Sequence record: PP892525.1
DNA: 64,000 nt
Direction: 5' to 3' (one strand)
Source of the DNA: Escherichia phage vB_EcoS_I14
Position 1 is the first letter of the stretch. The number at the start of each line of letters is the position of its first letter. Positions 50,644 to 55,903 of the stretch are shown piece after piece. Made by a program: the position numbers and the translations under genes. The notes below the pieces were generated by a model that had not been told where the DNA came from, searched no databases, and worked only from the letters and a program-made list of their open reading frames with translations.

Positions 50644-51342
50644 ATGAGGATCATTTCTAAATTCGCCGATGTATATGATTTGCAGAACAGTTTATTTGAT
50701 GCAGATCGTGTTTGGGAGCGTAAAACTGAAGAGCTACTGGTTAAAGTAACCGATGATGCAGAAAAGAACATTGTGCATACTCGCCAGGTATTTCGTGATG
50801 GCTCACTATCCTTTCGTGGTGATTTCGAATATTTTGTAAACCCACTATTTGTTGCAGGTGAAGTTTACTGGTTGCACGAGCTGTACTGCTGGCATCCAGC
50901 ATTTAGCTTCAAAACGTTTAATCTCGACACTATGTTCGATAAAATGGAAGAGATGGGATTACATGCTCGCTCTTACTTAATGGATAAGAGTCGCGGAGAT
51001 GTTCGTGAAACAATGCGTGATTTGCTCGCTGAAGCAAAACCTAAAGCAGAACGTATCTTATCCGAACTGCGTGTACCGATTGCATATGTGAAAGGTATTA
51101 AGAAGAACGATAACGATGATGTTCGTAACTTCGTGATTCAGACTAATATTCGTTTCCATCAGTCAGGTATTCCGTGGCAGGAAATTGAAAGTAACTTATA
51201 CCGTTTACACCAAGTTCTCGAACAGTATATCTTCGGTGTACTAGGAACTGGTGAGCCTGATATGATTAAAGTATCAGATAAAGACAGGTTAGCAGCGCAT
51301 GGATTTGATACAAAAACTTCTTTCAGGAATATGGCACGGTAA
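50644..51342 (+). CDS. hypothetical protein
   Basis: 232 aa ORF after promoter 50584-50612. Confidence 0.5.
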   Translation: MRIISKFADVYDLQNSLFDADRVWERKTEELLVKVTDDAEKNIVHTRQVFRDGSLSFRGDFEYFVNPLFVAGEVYWLHELYCWHPAFSFKTFNLDTMFDKMEEMGLHARSYLMDKSRGDVRETMRDLLAEAKPKAERILSELRVPIAYVKGIKKNDNDDVRNFVIQTNIRFHQSGIPWQEIESNLYRLHQVLEQYIFGVLGTGEPDMIKVSDKDRLAAHGFDTKTSFRNMAR

Positions 51343-51748
51343 GTGGTATATCCTGGGAGCAGGTCTAGCGATAGGCATCGGGTTCGGTGCGTATCACTTA
51401 GTAAATAAAGTGGAGACTTTAGCGGGAGATCTTGCGGTAGCTACTAAAAAGATTTCCTCTCTAGAGACTTCCCTTAATAAGGTGAAAGCTGAAAGTGAAC
51501 TTCGTGAGACTAGAATGAATCAGTATTTCACAGTGAATAATATTTCGCAAGCAGATCTAGACAAAAAGATTAAGCAGTTAGATAAAGCTCTTAGTCGACA
51601 AGATATTATAGCTGCAAAGCCTGGATTGGTAACATTAATTGCTAAAAAGCAGAGTAAAGAGTTCGAGGAAAGATTAGCGTGTTTAACTGGAAACTTGGAA
51701 TACTGCTCGCAGCCGCAATCACAATCACAGGCTGTGCAGAAGAAATAA
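51299..51748 (+). CDS. membrane-anchored coiled-coil protein (candidate i-spanin-like)
   Basis: 149 aa; N-terminal TM WYILGAGLAIGIGFGAYHLV then coiled coil; 3' end overlaps the lipoprotein ORF. Confidence 0.4.
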   Translation: MDLIQKLLSGIWHGKWYILGAGLAIGIGFGAYHLVNKVETLAGDLAVATKKISSLETSLNKVKAESELRETRMNQYFTVNNISQADLDKKIKQLDKALSRQDIIAAKPGLVTLIAKKQSKEFEERLACLTGNLEYCSQPQSQSQAVQKK

Positions 51749-52032
51749 AACCAGAGCCATCTCATGAGTTAAAGCAAGCTCATGTAGACTGGCCTAAAGG
51801 ACTTCAACCTTGTAGCTTTGACTTTAAGTTTGAAAAGAAATTAGCTACAAATGGAGAAGATGGCGTAGTAGTTGTTGTACCATACAAAGATTGGAATGCA
51901 AAAGCAAAATGTGAGGAAGCAGTTTACTCTTACATTTCACGACTGACTGGTATGGTTTGCTTCTATCGCCAAGATTTACAAGAAAAACGTTGCTTAGTTT
52001 ACTATCCACCAATTAACAATAGGAAAGATTAA
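51679..52032 (+). CDS. lipoprotein (candidate o-spanin-like)
   Basis: 117 aa; signal peptide with lipobox ITGC; start embedded in the 3' end of 51299-51748. Confidence 0.45.
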   Translation: MFNWKLGILLAAAITITGCAEEIKPEPSHELKQAHVDWPKGLQPCSFDFKFEKKLATNGEDGVVVVVPYKDWNAKAKCEEAVYSYISRLTGMVCFYRQDLQEKRCLVYYPPINNRKD

Positions 52033-52784
52033 TGTCAGTATTAGTCGGTTTACATGGTGAAGCTGGTTCGGGAAAAGATACCGTTGCAAAATTAATTATC
52101 GATTGGTGTAATGACACGTATCCAACATGTTTATCACGTCGTTATAGTTTTGCTAAGCCCGTTTATGAACTTGCATCCGTAATCCTCGGTGTAACTCCGG
52201 AGTTTCTAGGAGAGCGCAGGGGAAAAGAGATTGACCAATGGTTTACTGTCACACAATCTCAATTGGAGCGAGCCAGAGATGTGTGGTTTAAGTACGGTAT
52301 CGATAAGTTTGAAGACTTCTCGTACATTTGGCCTATTTTTGAGGAAAAGTATCTTAATCCTCAACAACTTATCTCAGAGAATAAAGAAGACGGACTTTAT
52401 AGTTTATTTATTTCTCCGAGAAAAATGTTACAGCTCGTAGGGACAGAGCTAGGAAGGCAGCTGGTGCATGAACGCATTTGGCTCATAATTCTGGAGCAAT
52501 CCATCGCTAAAGACGACCCAGATGTCGCCGTAATAACAGATGTTAGATTCCCCAATGAAGGAGAGTTACTCAGAGAAACAAACCATTTAGATATGGATTC
52601 TTTGATAGTAAATGTAGTACCCGCTGAGCAGAAGTTCACTATTAAATCAGATCATCCATCTGAAAGTGGTATTCCTGCAAAATATATTACGCACGAATTA
52701 GTTAATAAATTCGATGGTATCAATAACCTTAAACTAGAAGTTTATAACTTCTGTGACTTAGAGCTAGAACCACTAGTTGGATAA
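52032..52784 (+). CDS. dnk: deoxynucleoside monophosphate kinase
   Basis: 250 aa; P-loop GEAGSGKDT; size matches T5 dNMP kinase. Confidence 0.75.
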   Translation: MSVLVGLHGEAGSGKDTVAKLIIDWCNDTYPTCLSRRYSFAKPVYELASVILGVTPEFLGERRGKEIDQWFTVTQSQLERARDVWFKYGIDKFEDFSYIWPIFEEKYLNPQQLISENKEDGLYSLFISPRKMLQLVGTELGRQLVHERIWLIILEQSIAKDDPDVAVITDVRFPNEGELLRETNHLDMDSLIVNVVPAEQKFTIKSDHPSESGIPAKYITHELVNKFDGINNLKLEVYNFCDLELEPLVG

Positions 52785-52796
52785 TCAAGGATCGCT

Positions 52797-53396
52797 ATGA
52801 CTAATAAAAAAGAAGAAAAGACTAACCTGTTTCACTCCATTCGCCAATCTAATGAGTATACCTTTTTCTTTGATGAAGAATTAGGTCCACCTGATGAATA
52901 CCGTGATTTATCAATGGTACTTATGCAGGCAAATGAGGACGACGAAATTAATCTGATGATTAATGGCCCGGGTGGTTATGTTGATACTGCTGCACAGTTA
53001 TCTAACTTAATTGCTAATTGCCGTGGAACAGTTATAGGACATCTGGTTGGTCCTAGTGCTTCTGCTTACTGCACAATTTTTCTATCCTGTCATGGATGGG
53101 TAGTACACCCACATGCTACGCTAATGGGCCACACGTTCTCTGGTGGGTTCTGTGAGAAAGGTCAGGAAATCAAGAAAGCCTATGAATCTTACAACAAGTT
53201 TGTAGAAGATATGATGCTAGATGTCTACTATCCCTTTTTCTCAATAGATGAAATCGACGAGATGGTAAAAGACAACAAAAATATCTATCTAGATAGCAAG
53301 GAAATCCATAAGCGTATTGAAATCTTGGCGAAATATCGATCTGAGCAATATAATAAAGCCCAGTTACCTCAATCCGAGGAGCACAACGAAGAGTAA
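52797..53396 (+). CDS. ClpP-like serine peptidase family protein
   Basis: 199 aa; INGPGGYVDTAAQL resembles the ClpP INSPGG motif; candidate Ser in GPSASAY. Confidence 0.5.
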   Translation: MTNKKEEKTNLFHSIRQSNEYTFFFDEELGPPDEYRDLSMVLMQANEDDEINLMINGPGGYVDTAAQLSNLIANCRGTVIGHLVGPSASAYCTIFLSCHGWVVHPHATLMGHTFSGGFCEKGQEIKKAYESYNKFVEDMMLDVYYPFFSIDEIDEMVKDNKNIYLDSKEIHKRIEILAKYRSEQYNKAQLPQSEEHNEE

Positions 53397-53405
53397 GTAA
53401 TTTTA

Positions 53406-53437
53406 AGCCAGGGTTTAACGACCCTGGCTTTTCTTTT
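53406..53437 (+). terminator. intrinsic terminator after the ClpP-like gene
   Basis: AGCCAGGG-TTTAACGA-CCCTGGCT hairpin followed by TTTTCTTTT. Confidence 0.75.
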
Positions 53438-53499
53438 ATCTAAAATTCTTCTTGACAACGACAAAATTTTGTGCTCCAAAGAAAATCTTTAAAAACACA

Positions 53500-53528
53500 T
53501 TGTAATTTTCCTCCAAAATTAGTATAAT
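53500..53528 (+). promoter_or_regulatory. sigma70-type promoter upstream of holin
   Basis: TTGTAA-17bp-TATAAT; a TTGACA hexamer also lies at 53452-53457. Confidence 0.55.
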
Positions 53529-53552
53529 GGTACTGGTTAGAGGAGGTTACAA

Positions 53553-54209
53553 TTGGAAAAGTTCTTACAATTATTAACGGTACTGCTCCAAGAAGCGAAA
53601 GATCCAGCATCGCTTCTTAAACGTCTGCTAACTATCTTAGTTGCTGTCATTATTTTCTTATTTGTTAGTAATACTAGCGAGGTGATGTCATTCTTAAAGA
53701 CTTTCTCCACGTCTGCGGTTCTACAGGATGTTCAAACTCAAAGGATAGATAACTTTCCTAATGTAGCTAGAGAAAAGAGCATGGTACTCTTTTCTCAAAC
53801 GGGTGCGGATGCTGTTTTTGTAGTCAAGTATAAACCCGATGCCATTAATGATTATTCTAACATTATTGCATGGGAAAGCAATGCGCAATTAGATAGGGCT
53901 GACTTGGCCGATAAAGCAGTAAATAAAACGTCTGAGCTATACAGACGTCACTTAGAGGGCTTTAACTACGCATCGGATTTAAGTGTAAGAGTAAATAAAT
54001 ATACGGGGTTAAATATACCTGCGTTTAAGAACGTTACTTTTAATTACATATACACTTGTCCATATTTCAATCTAAACAATATCTATGCTGGATATATTGG
54101 TATTGCTTGGAAAGATAATCCTGTAGATGCAGCCGATTCTGAGAAATTTAAGGAATATTTAACAAAGCTCTGTTCTCCACAACAGAGATCTTTAGGTAGA
54201 TCAATATGA
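53553..54209 (+). CDS. holin-like membrane protein
   Basis: 218 aa; TM segment LLTILVAVIIFLFV; immediately upstream of endolysin; apparent TTG start after AGGAGG. Confidence 0.6.
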   Translation: MEKFLQLLTVLLQEAKDPASLLKRLLTILVAVIIFLFVSNTSEVMSFLKTFSTSAVLQDVQTQRIDNFPNVAREKSMVLFSQTGADAVFVVKYKPDAINDYSNIIAWESNAQLDRADLADKAVNKTSELYRRHLEGFNYASDLSVRVNKYTGLNIPAFKNVTFNYIYTCPYFNLNNIYAGYIGIAWKDNPVDAADSEKFKEYLTKLCSPQQRSLGRSI

Positions 54210-54619
54210 GTTTTAAATTTGGTAAAAATAGCGAAAAACAATTAGCTACCGTTAAGCCAGAGCTACAAAAAGTAGCTCGTAGAGCTTTAGAATTATCTCC
54301 ATATGATTTCACGATCGTACAGGGTATTCGTACAGTAGCACAAAGTGCCCAGAATATTGCTAATGGTACTTCATTTTTAAAAGATCCTAGTAAAAGCAAG
54401 CATATTACTGGGGATGCTCTTGATTTTGCTCCATACATTAATGGCAAGATTGATTGGAATGACTTAGAAGCATTTTGGGCAGTTAAAAAGGCTTTTGAAC
54501 AAGCAGGTAAAGAACTAGGCATTAAACTTCGTTTTGGTGCTGATTGGAATGCTTCGGGAGATTATCACGATGAAATAAAACGTGGTACCTATGATGGCGG
54601 TCATGTCGAACTAGTTTAA
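54206..54619 (+). CDS. endolysin, L-alanyl-D-glutamate peptidase type
   Basis: 137 aa, the size of T5 endolysin; His/Asp-rich C-terminus; followed by a strong terminator. Confidence 0.8.
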   Translation: MSFKFGKNSEKQLATVKPELQKVARRALELSPYDFTIVQGIRTVAQSAQNIANGTSFLKDPSKSKHITGDALDFAPYINGKIDWNDLEAFWAVKKAFEQAGKELGIKLRFGADWNASGDYHDEIKRGTYDGGHVELV

Positions 54620-54628
54620 TTAATAACT

Positions 54629-54653
54629 GAGGCGGGAATATTCCCGCCTTTTT
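54629..54653 (+). terminator. intrinsic terminator after endolysin
   Basis: GGCGGGA-ATAT-TCCCGCC hairpin followed by TTTTT. Confidence 0.8.
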
Positions 54654-54696
54654 AGGCAAAGGGGGCTTTAATAATTTTTGAAGATAGGAGAAAGCC

Positions 54697-55113
54697 ATGT
54701 TTGCAGAACTATTCACTATGATGCTGCTAGGTATCTGGAAAATAAGTCTAGTAGTATTCGTTTTAATGATAGTCTTTACTATCCTTGCATTAACTACCCG
54801 AAATAGCTTGTTAATAAAGGTTATTCACGGACTAGAGTATATAATTATGGGTTCATTCGGCGTTTGTAAATGCAATTGCCATAGAGATACGAAATATTGT
54901 TGGTTATGGATGGAACTAGAGAATCCTATATCCATAGCTTTGGCTGTTTCATTCGGCATGATTCTTATGGCCCTTACTCTAGCATTAATACCTTTGATGT
55001 TAGCTGGGGGAGTTACAGCGTATTTCACCCTTTTCTCCCCGATACTTATGTACTCAATTTACCCAATAACTATGTATCTAGTTAGGAAAAGATTTATACA
55101 CGCAGAAGATTAA
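54697..55113 (+). CDS. hypothetical multi-pass membrane protein
   Basis: 138 aa with several hydrophobic segments. Confidence 0.5.
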   Translation: MFAELFTMMLLGIWKISLVVFVLMIVFTILALTTRNSLLIKVIHGLEYIIMGSFGVCKCNCHRDTKYCWLWMELENPISIALAVSFGMILMALTLALIPLMLAGGVTAYFTLFSPILMYSIYPITMYLVRKRFIHAED

Positions 55114-55188: not shown

Positions 55189-55620
55189 ATGTCTGATCGT
55201 TTCTATACTCAAATGGCGGAACATTTTCGTATACCACATTACGAGCTAAACATTGCACTCCGTGATCATGACTCTCCTGAGTACAAAAAGCTCGAAAAGA
55301 AAGCGGAAAAATCTATTGATACAAAGGTAGGTGCATCTATGTCTAAGGGCAAAAAGTTAACTCGTCTTGATCTTAATAAAATTTTAACTGAACTTTTGGG
55401 TACTGATATTGAAGGTGCTAAATTACCACTTCTTGTACTAGAGACTATGATTAAAAAGGTCAAAAATAAAGAGTATAAAAAGGTAGAAGTCCCAGAAGGC
55501 AGATTAAAGGCTCCTTATCAGGAAGCATTAACCGAGTGTTTGGGTGTAAATCTTGATCTGAGCACCGCAACCGTAAAAACTATGAAAAACTTCTTAGAGG
55601 CCATTAATAACTATGAGTAA
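55189..55620 (+). CDS. hypothetical protein
   Basis: 143 aa ORF after promoter 55127-55155. Confidence 0.5.
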   Translation: MSDRFYTQMAEHFRIPHYELNIALRDHDSPEYKKLEKKAEKSIDTKVGASMSKGKKLTRLDLNKILTELLGTDIEGAKLPLLVLETMIKKVKNKEYKKVEVPEGRLKAPYQEALTECLGVNLDLSTATVKTMKNFLEAINNYE

Positions 55621-55903
55621 ATTAGTATATTTATTAAAAGGTTCCACTTGCAATCCTTGCAAACTTTTCGAGCCAGTGTTTGATAAAGTAGTCAGTGACT
55701 ATAATTTGGAAATCCATAAAGAGACTGATAATACAGAATTAATGCAGAAATTTGGTGTGCGCCAAGTTCCTGTAGTAGTTCTGGCGGATCGTTTACCTAA
55801 TGGTCGAGTAGAAGCTAATCATATTTTGATTGGACGTCAGCTTCGTAAAGAAACTATGCACGAAGCTATTAAAAATTTCCTGGAGGATAATCCAGAGGAC
55901 TAA
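55613..55903 (+). CDS. thioredoxin/glutaredoxin-like protein
   Basis: 96 aa; CNPC redox motif near the N-terminus. Confidence 0.6.
   Translation: MSKLVYLLKGSTCNPCKLFEPVFDKVVSDYNLEIHKETDNTELMQKFGVRQVPVVVLADRLPNGRVEANHILIGRQLRKETMHEAIKNFLEDNPED

What the first reader, a model, noticed from the sequence alone, without database searches (positions are those of the whole stretch)
52797..53396. ClpP-like peptidase family protein encoded next to dNMP kinase
The motif INGPGGYVDTAAQL resembles the ClpP INSPGG signature and a candidate catalytic Ser lies in GPSASAY, but a canonical Ser-His-Asp triad is not obvious. It may be an inactive ClpP mimic that interferes with host proteolysis, or a divergent protease.
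Basis: inference. Interest (0 to 1): 0.45.

Follow-up and report, generated by a model that had tools for sequence, protein, structure and literature searches.

The report
T5 Clp-like protease gene (T5.042)
This is the long-annotated but never characterised Clp-like protease gene of phage T5 and its relatives: a real ClpP-fold enzyme with its catalytic Ser and His intact and Asn in place of Asp, and apparently without the surfaces that ClpP uses to dock its ATPase partners.

Summary
The ORF at 52797-53396 (+, 199 aa) is real. The window is a T5-like phage, and the protein is 99% identical to T5 gene T5.042, annotated "putative ATP-dependent Clp protease" in hundreds of genomes.

It is a true ClpP-fold protein: Pfam CLP_protease scores above its cut-off, and Foldseek's top 50 solved structures are all ClpP.

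The triad does map. Ser89 and His112 align with ClpP Ser97 and His122 and are invariant in 161 of 161 diverse relatives. The third position is Asn162 in the T5 clade, against Asp or Glu in 143 of the 161.

The gene is under strong purifying selection (dN/dS 0.05), which argues against a dead mimic.

It belongs to a discrete phage-only clade. Members always sit among early and nucleotide-metabolism genes, never beside portal or capsid genes. The clade lacks ClpP's N-terminal axial loop, and its IGF-loop patch is degenerate (Y60/Y62/F82 become N52/M54/N74). The "ATP-dependent" label and the idea of a ClpX/ClpA-sequestering mimic are therefore both unsupported.

T5.042 knock-down gave no fitness defect in a published screen, and no substrate is known.

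Most likely it is an accessory, chaperone-independent intracellular peptidase. Interest is modest.

The parts
52797..53396 (+). Clp-like protease CDS (199 aa), orthologue of phage T5 gene T5.042
   Evidence: ORF. It is 99.0% identical to T5 AY543070 21157-21753, "putative ATP-dependent Clp protease" (H26). Pfam PF00574 scores 33.7 bits, above the gathering cut-off of 20.2. PHROG 1827 gives 2e-90. ClpP fold.
52787..52791 (+). Shine-Dalgarno AAGGA, 5 nt before the ATG
   Evidence: Read directly from the sequence.
52959..53000 (+). INGPGGYVDTAAQL (aa 55-68), equivalent to the ClpP INSPGG loop. Gly59 and Gly60 are invariant; Gly60 corresponds to ClpP oxyanion-hole Gly68.
   Evidence: G59 and G60 are present in 161/161.
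53061..53063 (+). Codon TCT for Ser89, the catalytic nucleophile (ClpP Ser97)
   Evidence: Alignments; 161/161 invariant.
53130..53132 (+). Codon CAC for His112, the catalytic His (ClpP His122)
   Evidence: 161/161 invariant.
53280..53282 (+). Codon AAT for Asn162, at the position of ClpP Asp171. The family has D 118, E 25, N 8 and T 6 here.
53405..53440 (+). Intrinsic-terminator-like hairpin (11-bp stem) plus a T tract, 9 nt after the stop codon
53500..53528 (+). Sigma-70-like promoter (TTGTAA, 17-nt spacer, TATAAT) ahead of holin and endolysin
   Evidence: This is a consensus match only.
52032..52784 (+). dNMP kinase, immediately upstream and probably in the same transcription unit
51299..52032 (+). 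i-spanin (51299-51748) and o-spanin (51679-52032), upstream of the dNMP kinase
   Evidence: DaisyDussoix annotation.
53553..54619 (+). T-type holin (53553-54209) and M15 endolysin (54206-54619), downstream
   Evidence: Pfam Phage_holin_T 2.8e-112; PHROG 465 endolysin 2.2e-54.

Best explanation
The gene is the T5.042 orthologue of a T5-like phage (Tequintavirus). It encodes a ClpP-fold serine peptidase from a discrete, phage-specific, non-structural clade (PHROG 1827). Catalysis most likely uses Ser89 and His112, with Asn162 orienting the histidine in place of the usual Asp. This third position tolerates D, E, N, Q and T across the clade. The protein has only about 8 residues where ClpP has its axial gating and docking loop, and two of the three aromatic residues of the IGF/LGF-loop patch are Asn. 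I therefore infer that it works without ClpX or ClpA, like the ClpP-related prohead proteases that are its nearest sequence relatives, so the "ATP-dependent" label is inherited rather than earned. It appears to be the last gene of a + strand unit (at least dNMP kinase and clp, possibly starting at the spanins). An intrinsic terminator follows it, and the holin-endolysin pair has its own promoter. It is dispensable in the laboratory but strongly conserved in nature, which fits an accessory intracellular protease acting on host or phage proteins or peptides during infection. The substrate is unknown. What is shown: fold, family membership, Ser/His conservation, the Asp-to-Asn change, purifying selection, genomic context, and absence of the docking motifs. 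What is inferred: catalytic activity, chaperone independence, oligomeric state, timing of expression, and biological role.
For: Identity: 98-99% nucleotide identity to Tequintavirus genomes, and 99% amino-acid identity to the T5 "putative ATP-dependent Clp protease". Fold and family. Catalytic residues: Ser89, His112, Gly59 and Gly60 are invariant in 161/161 representatives clustered at 50% identity or less; position 162 is D118/E25/N8/T6. Across phage lineages it is N, D, E, Q or T while Ser and His are always kept. Selection: dN/dS is 0.052 at dS 1.1 against Epseptimavirus, with a single substitution in residues 47-133. It is one of only 8 core genes above 80% identity in 185 Tequintavirus genomes (PMC12639943). 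A discrete clade: the profile search gives 154-256 bits for family members and about 60 bits for cellular ClpP. NCBIfam gives clpP TIGR00493 15.9 bits against a cut-off of 308.6; the best NCBIfam hit is the ClpP-related head maturation protease at 40.9 bits. PHROG head-protease families score 1e-21 to 1e-12, against 4e-8 for Pfam ClpP. Docking elements: E. coli ClpP residues 1-14 align with gaps, and Y60/Y62/F82 align with N52/M54/N74 (family consensus N/H/N). These are the two chaperone-binding elements described in PMC4416901. Context: homologues lie among early, replication and nucleotide-metabolism genes in Pakpunavirus, Otagovirus, Barbavirus, Certrevirus, Schizotequatrovirus, T4-like metagenomic contigs and Demerecviridae, and never beside portal or capsid genes. 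T5-likes have a separate prohead protease (PMC10644984). Operon signals. Dispensability: T5.042 is listed "Not Fit" in CRISPRi-ART (PMC11879866, supplementary file 16).
Against: No enzymatic or structural data exist for any member of this clade (searches found none). An Asn at the third triad position accompanies inactivity in isolated Listeria ClpP1 (PMC9257651), so the T5 enzyme alone could be weak or need activation. The docking-patch mapping rests on an alignment at 13-21% identity, although it is anchored by the invariant PGG, GxxxS and MxH motifs. The model's N-terminus (residues 1-19) and Gly-rich loop (116-122) have low confidence. Oligomeric state could not be predicted with the tools available. 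A non-canonical contact with host unfoldases cannot be excluded.
Confidence: 0.62

Rival explanations
1. ClpP1-type partner ring. The phage protein forms a heptamer that is inactive or weak alone. It stacks on a host ClpP heptamer to form a hybrid 7+7 particle. Host ClpX or ClpA still dock on the host ring, and the phage ring changes cleavage rate or specificity.
For: It shares three traits with non-docking ClpP1 subunits. It has a Ser-His-Asn triad like Listeria ClpP1 (Ser98/His123/Asn172), which is inactive alone and aligned and active in the ClpP1/2 heterocomplex (PMC9257651). Its N-terminal loop is short (about 8 residues), comparable to about 7 in M. tuberculosis ClpP1, which does not bind chaperones (PMC4416901). 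Its hydrophobic patch is degenerate. The handle helix and the GG motif of the Gly-rich strand are retained.
Against: It is only 13-21% identical to cellular ClpP, whereas the M. tuberculosis ClpP1/ClpP2 pair, for example, is 39.5% identical. The clade occurs in phages of very different hosts without tracking host ClpP. Most clade members have a normal Asp or Glu. The residues equivalent to the ClpP Asp170/Arg171 inter-ring sensor (sensor role from my own knowledge of S. aureus ClpP) are Asn160/Lys161 here and mostly Gly/Lys in the family. Its closest relatives are prohead proteases, not cellular ClpP.
Confidence: 0.12
2. One reading: a catalytically dead ClpP mimic that sequesters ClpX or ClpA, or poisons host ClpP, to block host proteolysis.
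For: The Asp of the triad is replaced by Asn162 in the T5 clade. Knock-down has no laboratory phenotype, as expected of an accessory host-interference gene.
Against: Ser89, His112 and Gly60 are invariant across the clade, including the Asn-bearing subclade down to 58% identity. dN/dS is 0.05. The IGF-loop patch and axial loop needed to bind ClpX or ClpA are absent. Asn, Gln, Thr, Glu and Asp all occur at the third position with Ser and His kept, which points to a tolerant catalytic site rather than decay.
Confidence: 0.06
3. A morphogenetic or virion-associated protease, either a second maturation protease or one that processes a tail or ejection protein, descended from a ClpP-like prohead protease.
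For: The nearest families outside its own are ClpP-related head maturation proteases (PHROG 1684 at 6.5e-21; NCBIfam NF045542 as best hit). The BF23 orthologue (ORF45) was detected in purified virions (PMC10644984).
Against: The virion signal was near the bottom of the list (3 peptides, about 50-80 times below portal), and a metabolic enzyme, DHFR, was also detected. T5-likes have a dedicated prohead protease. The gene lies in the early/nucleotide-metabolism region in every lineage examined and never with structural genes. The NF045542 score of 40.9 is far below its cut-off of 120. Knock-down is not deleterious.
Confidence: 0.1
4. A genuine ATP-dependent Clp protease core, as the database label says, which recruits host ClpX or ClpA through a non-canonical interface.
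For: ClpP fold with a handle region. This is the common database annotation.
Against: The label comes only from the Pfam-level similarity. The clpP equivalog models fail by a wide margin. Both known docking elements are missing. No AAA+ unfoldase is annotated in the DaisyDussoix stretches inspected, which cover the region corresponding to this window.
Confidence: 0.08

Closest known systems
Phage T5 gene T5.042 (AY543070 21154-21753), "putative ATP-dependent Clp protease"; PHROG 1827; BF23 ORF45
   Same: It is the same gene: 99% amino-acid identity and the same neighbours (spanins, dnk, clp, holin, lys). It is a core gene of Tequintavirus.
   Different: Nothing material. The function of T5.042 and BF23 ORF45 is itself stated to be unknown.
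Cellular ClpP (MEROPS S14; E. coli ClpP, TIGR00493)
   Same: Same fold. The Ser-His pair, the oxyanion Gly, the GG motif of the Gly-rich strand and the handle helix are all present, and the length is similar.
   Different: Identity is 13-21%. Asp171 becomes Asn162. There is no axial N-loop or propeptide. The IGF patch Y60/Y62/F82 becomes N52/M54/N74. There is a long C-terminal helix at 167-189. It fails the equivalog cut-offs.
Listeria monocytogenes ClpP1 (and M. tuberculosis ClpP1), non-docking ClpP isoforms
   Same: Ser-His-Asn triad (Lm ClpP1 Ser98/His123/Asn172), no cognate chaperone-binding site, and a short N-loop.
   Different: These are true ClpP paralogues that pair with a co-encoded ClpP2; Mtb ClpP1 and ClpP2, for example, are 39.5% identical. 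The phage protein is far more divergent, has no co-encoded partner, and its Asn is a derived state of one subclade.
ClpP-related phage head maturation proteases (NCBIfam NF045542; PHROG 1684 and 94)
   Same: These are the nearest sequence families outside its own. Like them, it is a ClpP-fold phage protein with no AAA+ partner encoded nearby.
   Different: It is not encoded between portal and capsid genes. T5 has a separate prohead protease. The score is 40.9 against a cut-off of 120.

Membership tests
ClpP superfamily (Pfam PF00574, MEROPS clan SK, family S14-like) | Sequence match above the Pfam gathering threshold | tested here: met
   33.7 bits against 20.2, E 4.2e-8, residues 41-139.
ClpP superfamily (Pfam PF00574, MEROPS clan SK, family S14-like) | ClpP alpha/beta fold with a handle helix | tested here: met
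   AF2 pLDDT 81.6. The top 50 Foldseek PDB hits are all ClpP, with E down to 8.7e-10, TM 0.6-0.65 and rmsd about 3 A over about 160 columns.
ClpP superfamily (Pfam PF00574, MEROPS clan SK, family S14-like) | Catalytic Ser and His at the conserved positions | tested here: met
   Ser89 and His112 align with Ser97 and His122 and are invariant in 161/161.
Canonical ClpP (TIGR00493 equivalog, the proteolytic core of ClpXP/ClpAP) | Asp as the third triad residue (E. coli Asp171) | tested here: not met
   Asn162 in the window and in all 8 T5-clade representatives. The wider clade has Asp or Glu in 143/161.
Canonical ClpP (TIGR00493 equivalog, the proteolytic core of ClpXP/ClpAP) | Score above the curated equivalog cut-off | tested here: not met
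   TIGR00493 gives 15.9 bits against 308.6. PRK00277 gives 22.8 bits against 249.
Canonical ClpP (TIGR00493 equivalog, the proteolytic core of ClpXP/ClpAP) | N-terminal axial loop for gating and unfoldase contact | tested here: not met
   E. coli mature residues 1-14 align with gaps. Only about 8 charged residues (MTNKKEEK) precede the segment aligned with helix A. Residues 1-19 are disordered in the model.
Canonical ClpP (TIGR00493 equivalog, the proteolytic core of ClpXP/ClpAP) | Hydrophobic patch for the IGF/LGF loop (E. coli Y60, Y62, F82, which are Y74, Y76, F96 in precursor numbering) | tested here: not met
   N52, M54 and N74 in the window; the family consensus is N, H, N. Patch residues as given in PMC4416901.
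Canonical ClpP (TIGR00493 equivalog, the proteolytic core of ClpXP/ClpAP) | Tetradecameric double ring and ATPase-dependent protein degradation | not testable with these tools
   No multimer prediction or biochemistry was available.
ClpP-related phage head maturation protease (NF045542) | Score above the cut-off, and a location in the head module beside portal, scaffold or capsid genes | tested here: not met
   40.9 bits against 120. The gene lies between the dNMP kinase and the holin. Homologues in 10 or more lineages are in early or metabolic regions. A separate prohead protease exists.
PHROG 1827 ("ATP-dependent protease", phage-specific clade) | Full-length profile match | tested here: met
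   E 2.1e-90, residues 1-198 against profile positions 5-201 of 202.
SppA/S49 and NfeD-type ClpP-fold proteases (Ser-Lys dyad) | Family profile above the cut-off, and a Ser-Lys dyad | tested here: not met
   NfeD1b_N gives 19.1 bits against 40. An invariant His112 sits at the ClpP histidine position.

The most novel reading that the evidence does not exclude
T5.042-type proteins form a widespread, uncharacterised class of gate-less, unfoldase-independent ClpP-like peptidases that large virulent phages co-express with their nucleotide-metabolism, PhoH and lysis genes. In the T5 subclade the Asp-to-Asn change and linked substitutions around the active site (P86, S87, Y91, C92, E120) mark a regulated enzyme. 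It could, for example, be activated by stacking on host ClpP in the manner of Listeria ClpP1, or by a phage partner. Such an enzyme would remodel the host proteome or remove a specific host or defence factor in natural hosts.
Probability: 0.15. Interest if true: 0.6.

Novelty: already known. Interest (0 to 1): 0.28.

Why it matters
The gene is one of very few proteins conserved above 80% identity across 185 Tequintavirus genomes. Relatives are present in more than 1,300 phage records, yet no member has a known substrate, partner or phenotype. [quoted passage not shown] A defined role, whether host proteome recycling, removal of a host factor, or control of lysis, would explain why an apparently dispensable gene is held under dN/dS of about 0.05. 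As a discovery from this window, however, it is an ordinary, already annotated gene.

Tried and rejected
1. Literature. Searches for T5 plus Clp protease, phage-encoded or viral ClpP, Clp-like protease, and T5.042 found no functional study. They found only the BF23 virion proteomics ("function currently unknown"), a core-gene list, and the CRISPRi-ART table.

2. Domain fusions as functional clues. Ten long family members (287-357 aa) carry no informative extra Pfam domain.

3. A scan of viral contigs with the 50-sequence alignment failed because no sufficiently conserved 7-10 column stretch exists. I used tblastn against annotated phages and contig look-ups instead.

4. Head-maturation protease reading: rejected on context and on NCBIfam score.

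5. SppA/NfeD Ser-Lys reading: rejected.

6. An alternative acidic residue to replace Asp in the T5 clade. D159 and D166 are not conserved.

7. The dN/dS value for the neighbouring dnk gene (0.38 at 58% identity) came from an ungapped comparison and should not be relied on.

Full report
**What is there**

The window is a T5-like phage. The stretch 52000-54700 is 98-99% identical at the nucleotide level to Salmonella phage WP85, Escherichia phage DaisyDussoix (Tequintavirus, Demerecviridae), AKFV33 and more than 400 other records.

The flagged ORF runs from 52797 to 53396 on the + strand, ATG to TAA, and encodes 199 aa. It is the only ORF of 40 aa or more in that interval. An AAGGA ribosome-binding site lies 5 nt upstream.

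The gene order around it is:
- i-spanin and o-spanin (51299-52032)
- dNMP kinase (52032-52784)
- this gene
- an 11-bp-stem intrinsic terminator (53405-53430 plus a T tract)
- a TTGTAA, 17-nt spacer, TATAAT promoter (53500-53528)
- T-type holin (53553-54209)
- M15 endolysin (54206-54619)

The protein is 99% identical to T5 "putative ATP-dependent Clp protease" (AY543070 21157-21753). That gene is T5.042 in the re-annotation used by Adler et al. (PMC11879866, supplementary file 8).

**Is it really ClpP-like?**

Yes, on four lines of evidence:
- Pfam CLP_protease scores 33.7 bits, above the gathering cut-off of 20.2 (E 4.2e-8).
- PHROG 1827 "ATP-dependent protease" matches over the full length at 2e-90.
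- phmmer against PDB sequences finds only ClpP chains, apart from one weak Enkurin hit at E 0.5. The best is Coxiella ClpP 3q7h at 1.9e-5.
- An AlphaFold2 model (mean pLDDT 81.6, pTM 0.77) matches solved structures with ClpP in all top 50 places (E from 8.7e-10, TM 0.60-0.65, about 160 aligned columns, 13-21% identity).

**Triad mapping**

The HMMER alignment to Coxiella ClpP and the MAFFT alignments with E. coli ClpP agree. GPSA-S89-AY aligns with GQAA-S97-MG, and LMG-H112-TF aligns with VMI-H122-QP. The ClpP motif R-D171-RFL aligns with K-N162-IYL.

An exhaustive HMMER search of 1.84 billion representatives found 1,925 relatives (942 at E below 1e-10). The best 150 that were listed are about 200-350 aa long and, a few fragments aside, align end to end.

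I aligned 161 sequences: the window protein plus the hits of at least 150 aa. Ser89, His112, Gly59 and Gly60 (the last being the ClpP oxyanion-hole Gly68) are present in 161 of 161. Position 162 is Asp in 118, Glu in 25, Asn in 8, Thr in 6, and something else in 4.

The eight Asn sequences are exactly the T5-like subclade, reaching down to 58% identity with the window protein. Named phages show the same spread at this position:
- Asn: T5-like window protein, Epseptimavirus
- Asp: Sugarlandvirus, Vibrio T5-like D391, Schizotequatrovirus phi-ST2
- Glu: Otagovirus M5.1, Certrevirus CB7, Pakpunavirus PaP1
- Gln: Barbavirus
- Thr: Shenzhenvirus AhSzq-1

Ser and His are kept in every one of them. 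Ser and His are unambiguous. The Asp has become Asn, one nucleotide away from an Asp codon (AAT against GAT). Within this clade that position tolerates any hydrogen-bonding side chain.

The T5 subclade also carries linked clade-specific substitutions. Some sit next to the nucleophile: P86, S87, Y91 and C92. One sits in the Gly-rich strand: E120, where 142 of 153 other members have Gly. I could not test whether these compensate for the Asn.

**Is it a decaying or dead copy?**

No. Against the Epseptimavirus OSY-STA orthologue, synonymous sites are nearly saturated (dS 1.1) while dN is 0.058, giving dN/dS of 0.05. That is comparable with the neighbouring holin and endolysin, and only one substitution falls in residues 47-133.

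A comparative study lists it among only eight core genes above 80% identity in 185 Tequintavirus genomes (PMC12639943).

**Which kind of ClpP-fold protein is it?**

It is not an orthologue of cellular ClpP. The NCBIfam clpP equivalog TIGR00493 scores 15.9 bits against a cut-off of 308.6. The best NCBIfam hit is "head maturation protease, ClpP-related" at 40.9 bits, itself far below its cut-off of 120.

After its own PHROG, the next best are PHROG 5410 (also "ATP-dependent protease", 2e-22) and the head-maturation-protease PHROGs 1684 and 94 (6.5e-21 and 1.7e-12). All of these are better than Pfam ClpP.

A profile search with 50 diverse members shows a clean gap. Family members score 154-256 bits, while cellular ClpPs score about 60 bits. 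This is a discrete phage clade whose nearest relatives are prohead proteases.

**Genomic context across phages**

tblastn finds the clade in 1,331 phage records. I inspected representatives of these groups:
- Pakpunavirus PaP1
- Certrevirus CB7
- Barbavirus
- Schizotequatrovirus phi-ST2
- Otagovirus M5.1
- Shenzhenvirus
- a Vibrio T5-like phage
- Epseptimavirus and Sugarlandvirus
- six metagenomic contigs of 30-290 kb

In every case the gene lies among early, replication or nucleotide-metabolism genes (dNMP kinase, dCMP deaminase, DHFR, NrdD, DNA ligase, RNase H, PhoH). It never lies beside portal, scaffold or major capsid genes.

Within Demerecviridae-like phages the order dNMP kinase, clp, holin/endolysin persists down to 40% protein identity (L015; D391).

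T5-like phages have a separate, dedicated prohead protease (PMC10644984). It lies outside this window, which covers the replication, nucleotide-metabolism, tRNA and lysis regions.

**Does it look able to work with ClpX or ClpA?**

The two known unfoldase-binding elements of ClpP are the N-terminal axial loop and a hydrophobic patch. In E. coli ClpP the patch is marked by Y74, Y76 and F96 in precursor numbering, which are Y60, Y62 and F82 in the mature protein (PMC4416901).

In the family alignment, E. coli mature residues 1-14 face gaps. The phage protein has only about eight charged residues (MTNKKEEK) before the segment that aligns with helix A, and residues 1-19 are low-confidence coil in the model.

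The patch positions are N52, M54 and N74, with a family consensus of N, H, N. Further pocket positions (known to me as I90 and L114) are H82 and H104.

This mapping is anchored by the adjacent invariant motifs, but it remains an alignment at low identity. On this evidence neither the "ATP-dependent" label nor a ClpX/ClpA-sequestering mimic is supported.

**Experimental knowledge**

I found no functional study. Two data points exist:
- The BF23 orthologue (ORF45) was detected in purified virions with 3 peptides. Its intensity was roughly 50-80 times lower than portal, and DHFR was detected alongside it. The authors state that its function is unknown (PMC10644984).
- In the genome-wide dCas13d knock-down of T5, T5.042 is listed "Not Fit", meaning no significant fitness cost under laboratory conditions (PMC11879866, supplementary file 16).

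**Most likely mechanism**

I consider it a catalysis-competent, accessory ClpP-fold serine peptidase. It would use Ser89 and His112, with Asn162 as the orienting residue. It would be made with the dNMP kinase from the early region and act in the cytoplasm without an AAA+ unfoldase, like the prohead proteases from which the clade appears to derive. Its target would be an unknown host or phage substrate (confidence about 0.6).

The main alternative is suggested by its resemblance to non-docking ClpP1 isoforms. Listeria ClpP1 has Ser98/His123/Asn172, is an inactive heptamer alone, lacks chaperone-binding sites, and becomes active when stacked on ClpP2 (PMC9257651). M. tuberculosis ClpP1 has an N-loop of about 7 residues and does not bind ClpX or ClpC1. 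A hybrid with host ClpP is conceivable, but several points count against it: the very low identity to cellular ClpP, the normal Asp or Glu in most clade members, and the non-conservation of the inter-ring sensor residues (about 0.12).

The other rivals are less likely:
- Dead mimic: about 0.06.
- Morphogenetic or virion-associated protease: about 0.10.
- True ClpXP-type core: about 0.08.

**Verdict**

The gene is already known and annotated, and its biological role remains open. Three modest points come from this check: the Asp-to-Asn change is a derived state of the T5 subclade, the docking elements are absent, and the clade has a consistently non-structural context. Interest is low to moderate.

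Noticed in passing
L004 4198-5720; L006 3186-4552; L016 5189-6651; L014 3786-5726; L003 846-5867; L012 and L013 (PhoH about 4.7 kb upstream): A PhoH-like ATPase gene recurs beside the Clp-like gene. It is immediately upstream in Barbavirus, Otagovirus M5.1 and metagenomic contig L016, where the two overlap by 4 nt. Alteromonas phage V22 lists them as consecutive genes, CDS-146 and CDS-147 (PMC7289586). PhoH is one gene away in L014, three genes away in CB7, and within 5 kb in two T4-like contigs. In the T5-like window PhoH is about 30 kb away. This could be inherited synteny or a functional link.
   Followed up: partly
window 53553-54619; L008 4851-5249; L013 4451-4996; L010 and L015: Cell-wall hydrolases also recur next to the Clp-like gene. 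Holin and endolysin lie directly downstream throughout the Demerecviridae-like phages. In Vibrio phage D391 the endolysin overlaps the clp stop codon by 11 nt. In a 290-kb phage contig a Hydrolase_2 gene lies immediately upstream. In the window the lysis cassette is split by the dNMP kinase and clp genes (spanins | dnk | clp | terminator | promoter | holin | endolysin).
   Followed up: partly
window 50644-51342 (+): This 232-aa ORF of unknown function has the same length (699 nt) and the same position as T5.047. T5.047 is scored "Fit" (important) in the CRISPRi-ART T5 screen, while its neighbours are "Not Fit". It was not examined further, and the orthology is inferred from position and length only.
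   Followed up: no
window 55189-55903 and 51299-51342: The window appears to lack two homing-endonuclease insertions that relatives carry. DaisyDussoix has a putative HEG between the 143-aa ORF and the thioredoxin-like 96-aa ORF (L001 9615-10142), whereas in the window these two ORFs overlap directly. T5 has hegF (T5.046) between T5.047 and the spanin gene T5.045, where the window has none.
   Followed up: no
window 52797-53396, residues 86, 87, 91, 92, 120, 129, 132, 135, 145: A set of substitutions is specific to the Asn162 (T5-like) subclade. It includes Glu120, which replaces a Gly present in 142 of 153 other family members in the Gly-rich handle strand, and Pro86, which replaces the usual Glu or Asp three residues before the catalytic Ser. 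This may be a compensatory remodelling of the active site.
   Followed up: partly
P0002: [quoted passage not shown] This is almost certainly a T5-like phage contig mislabelled as bacterial.
   Followed up: no
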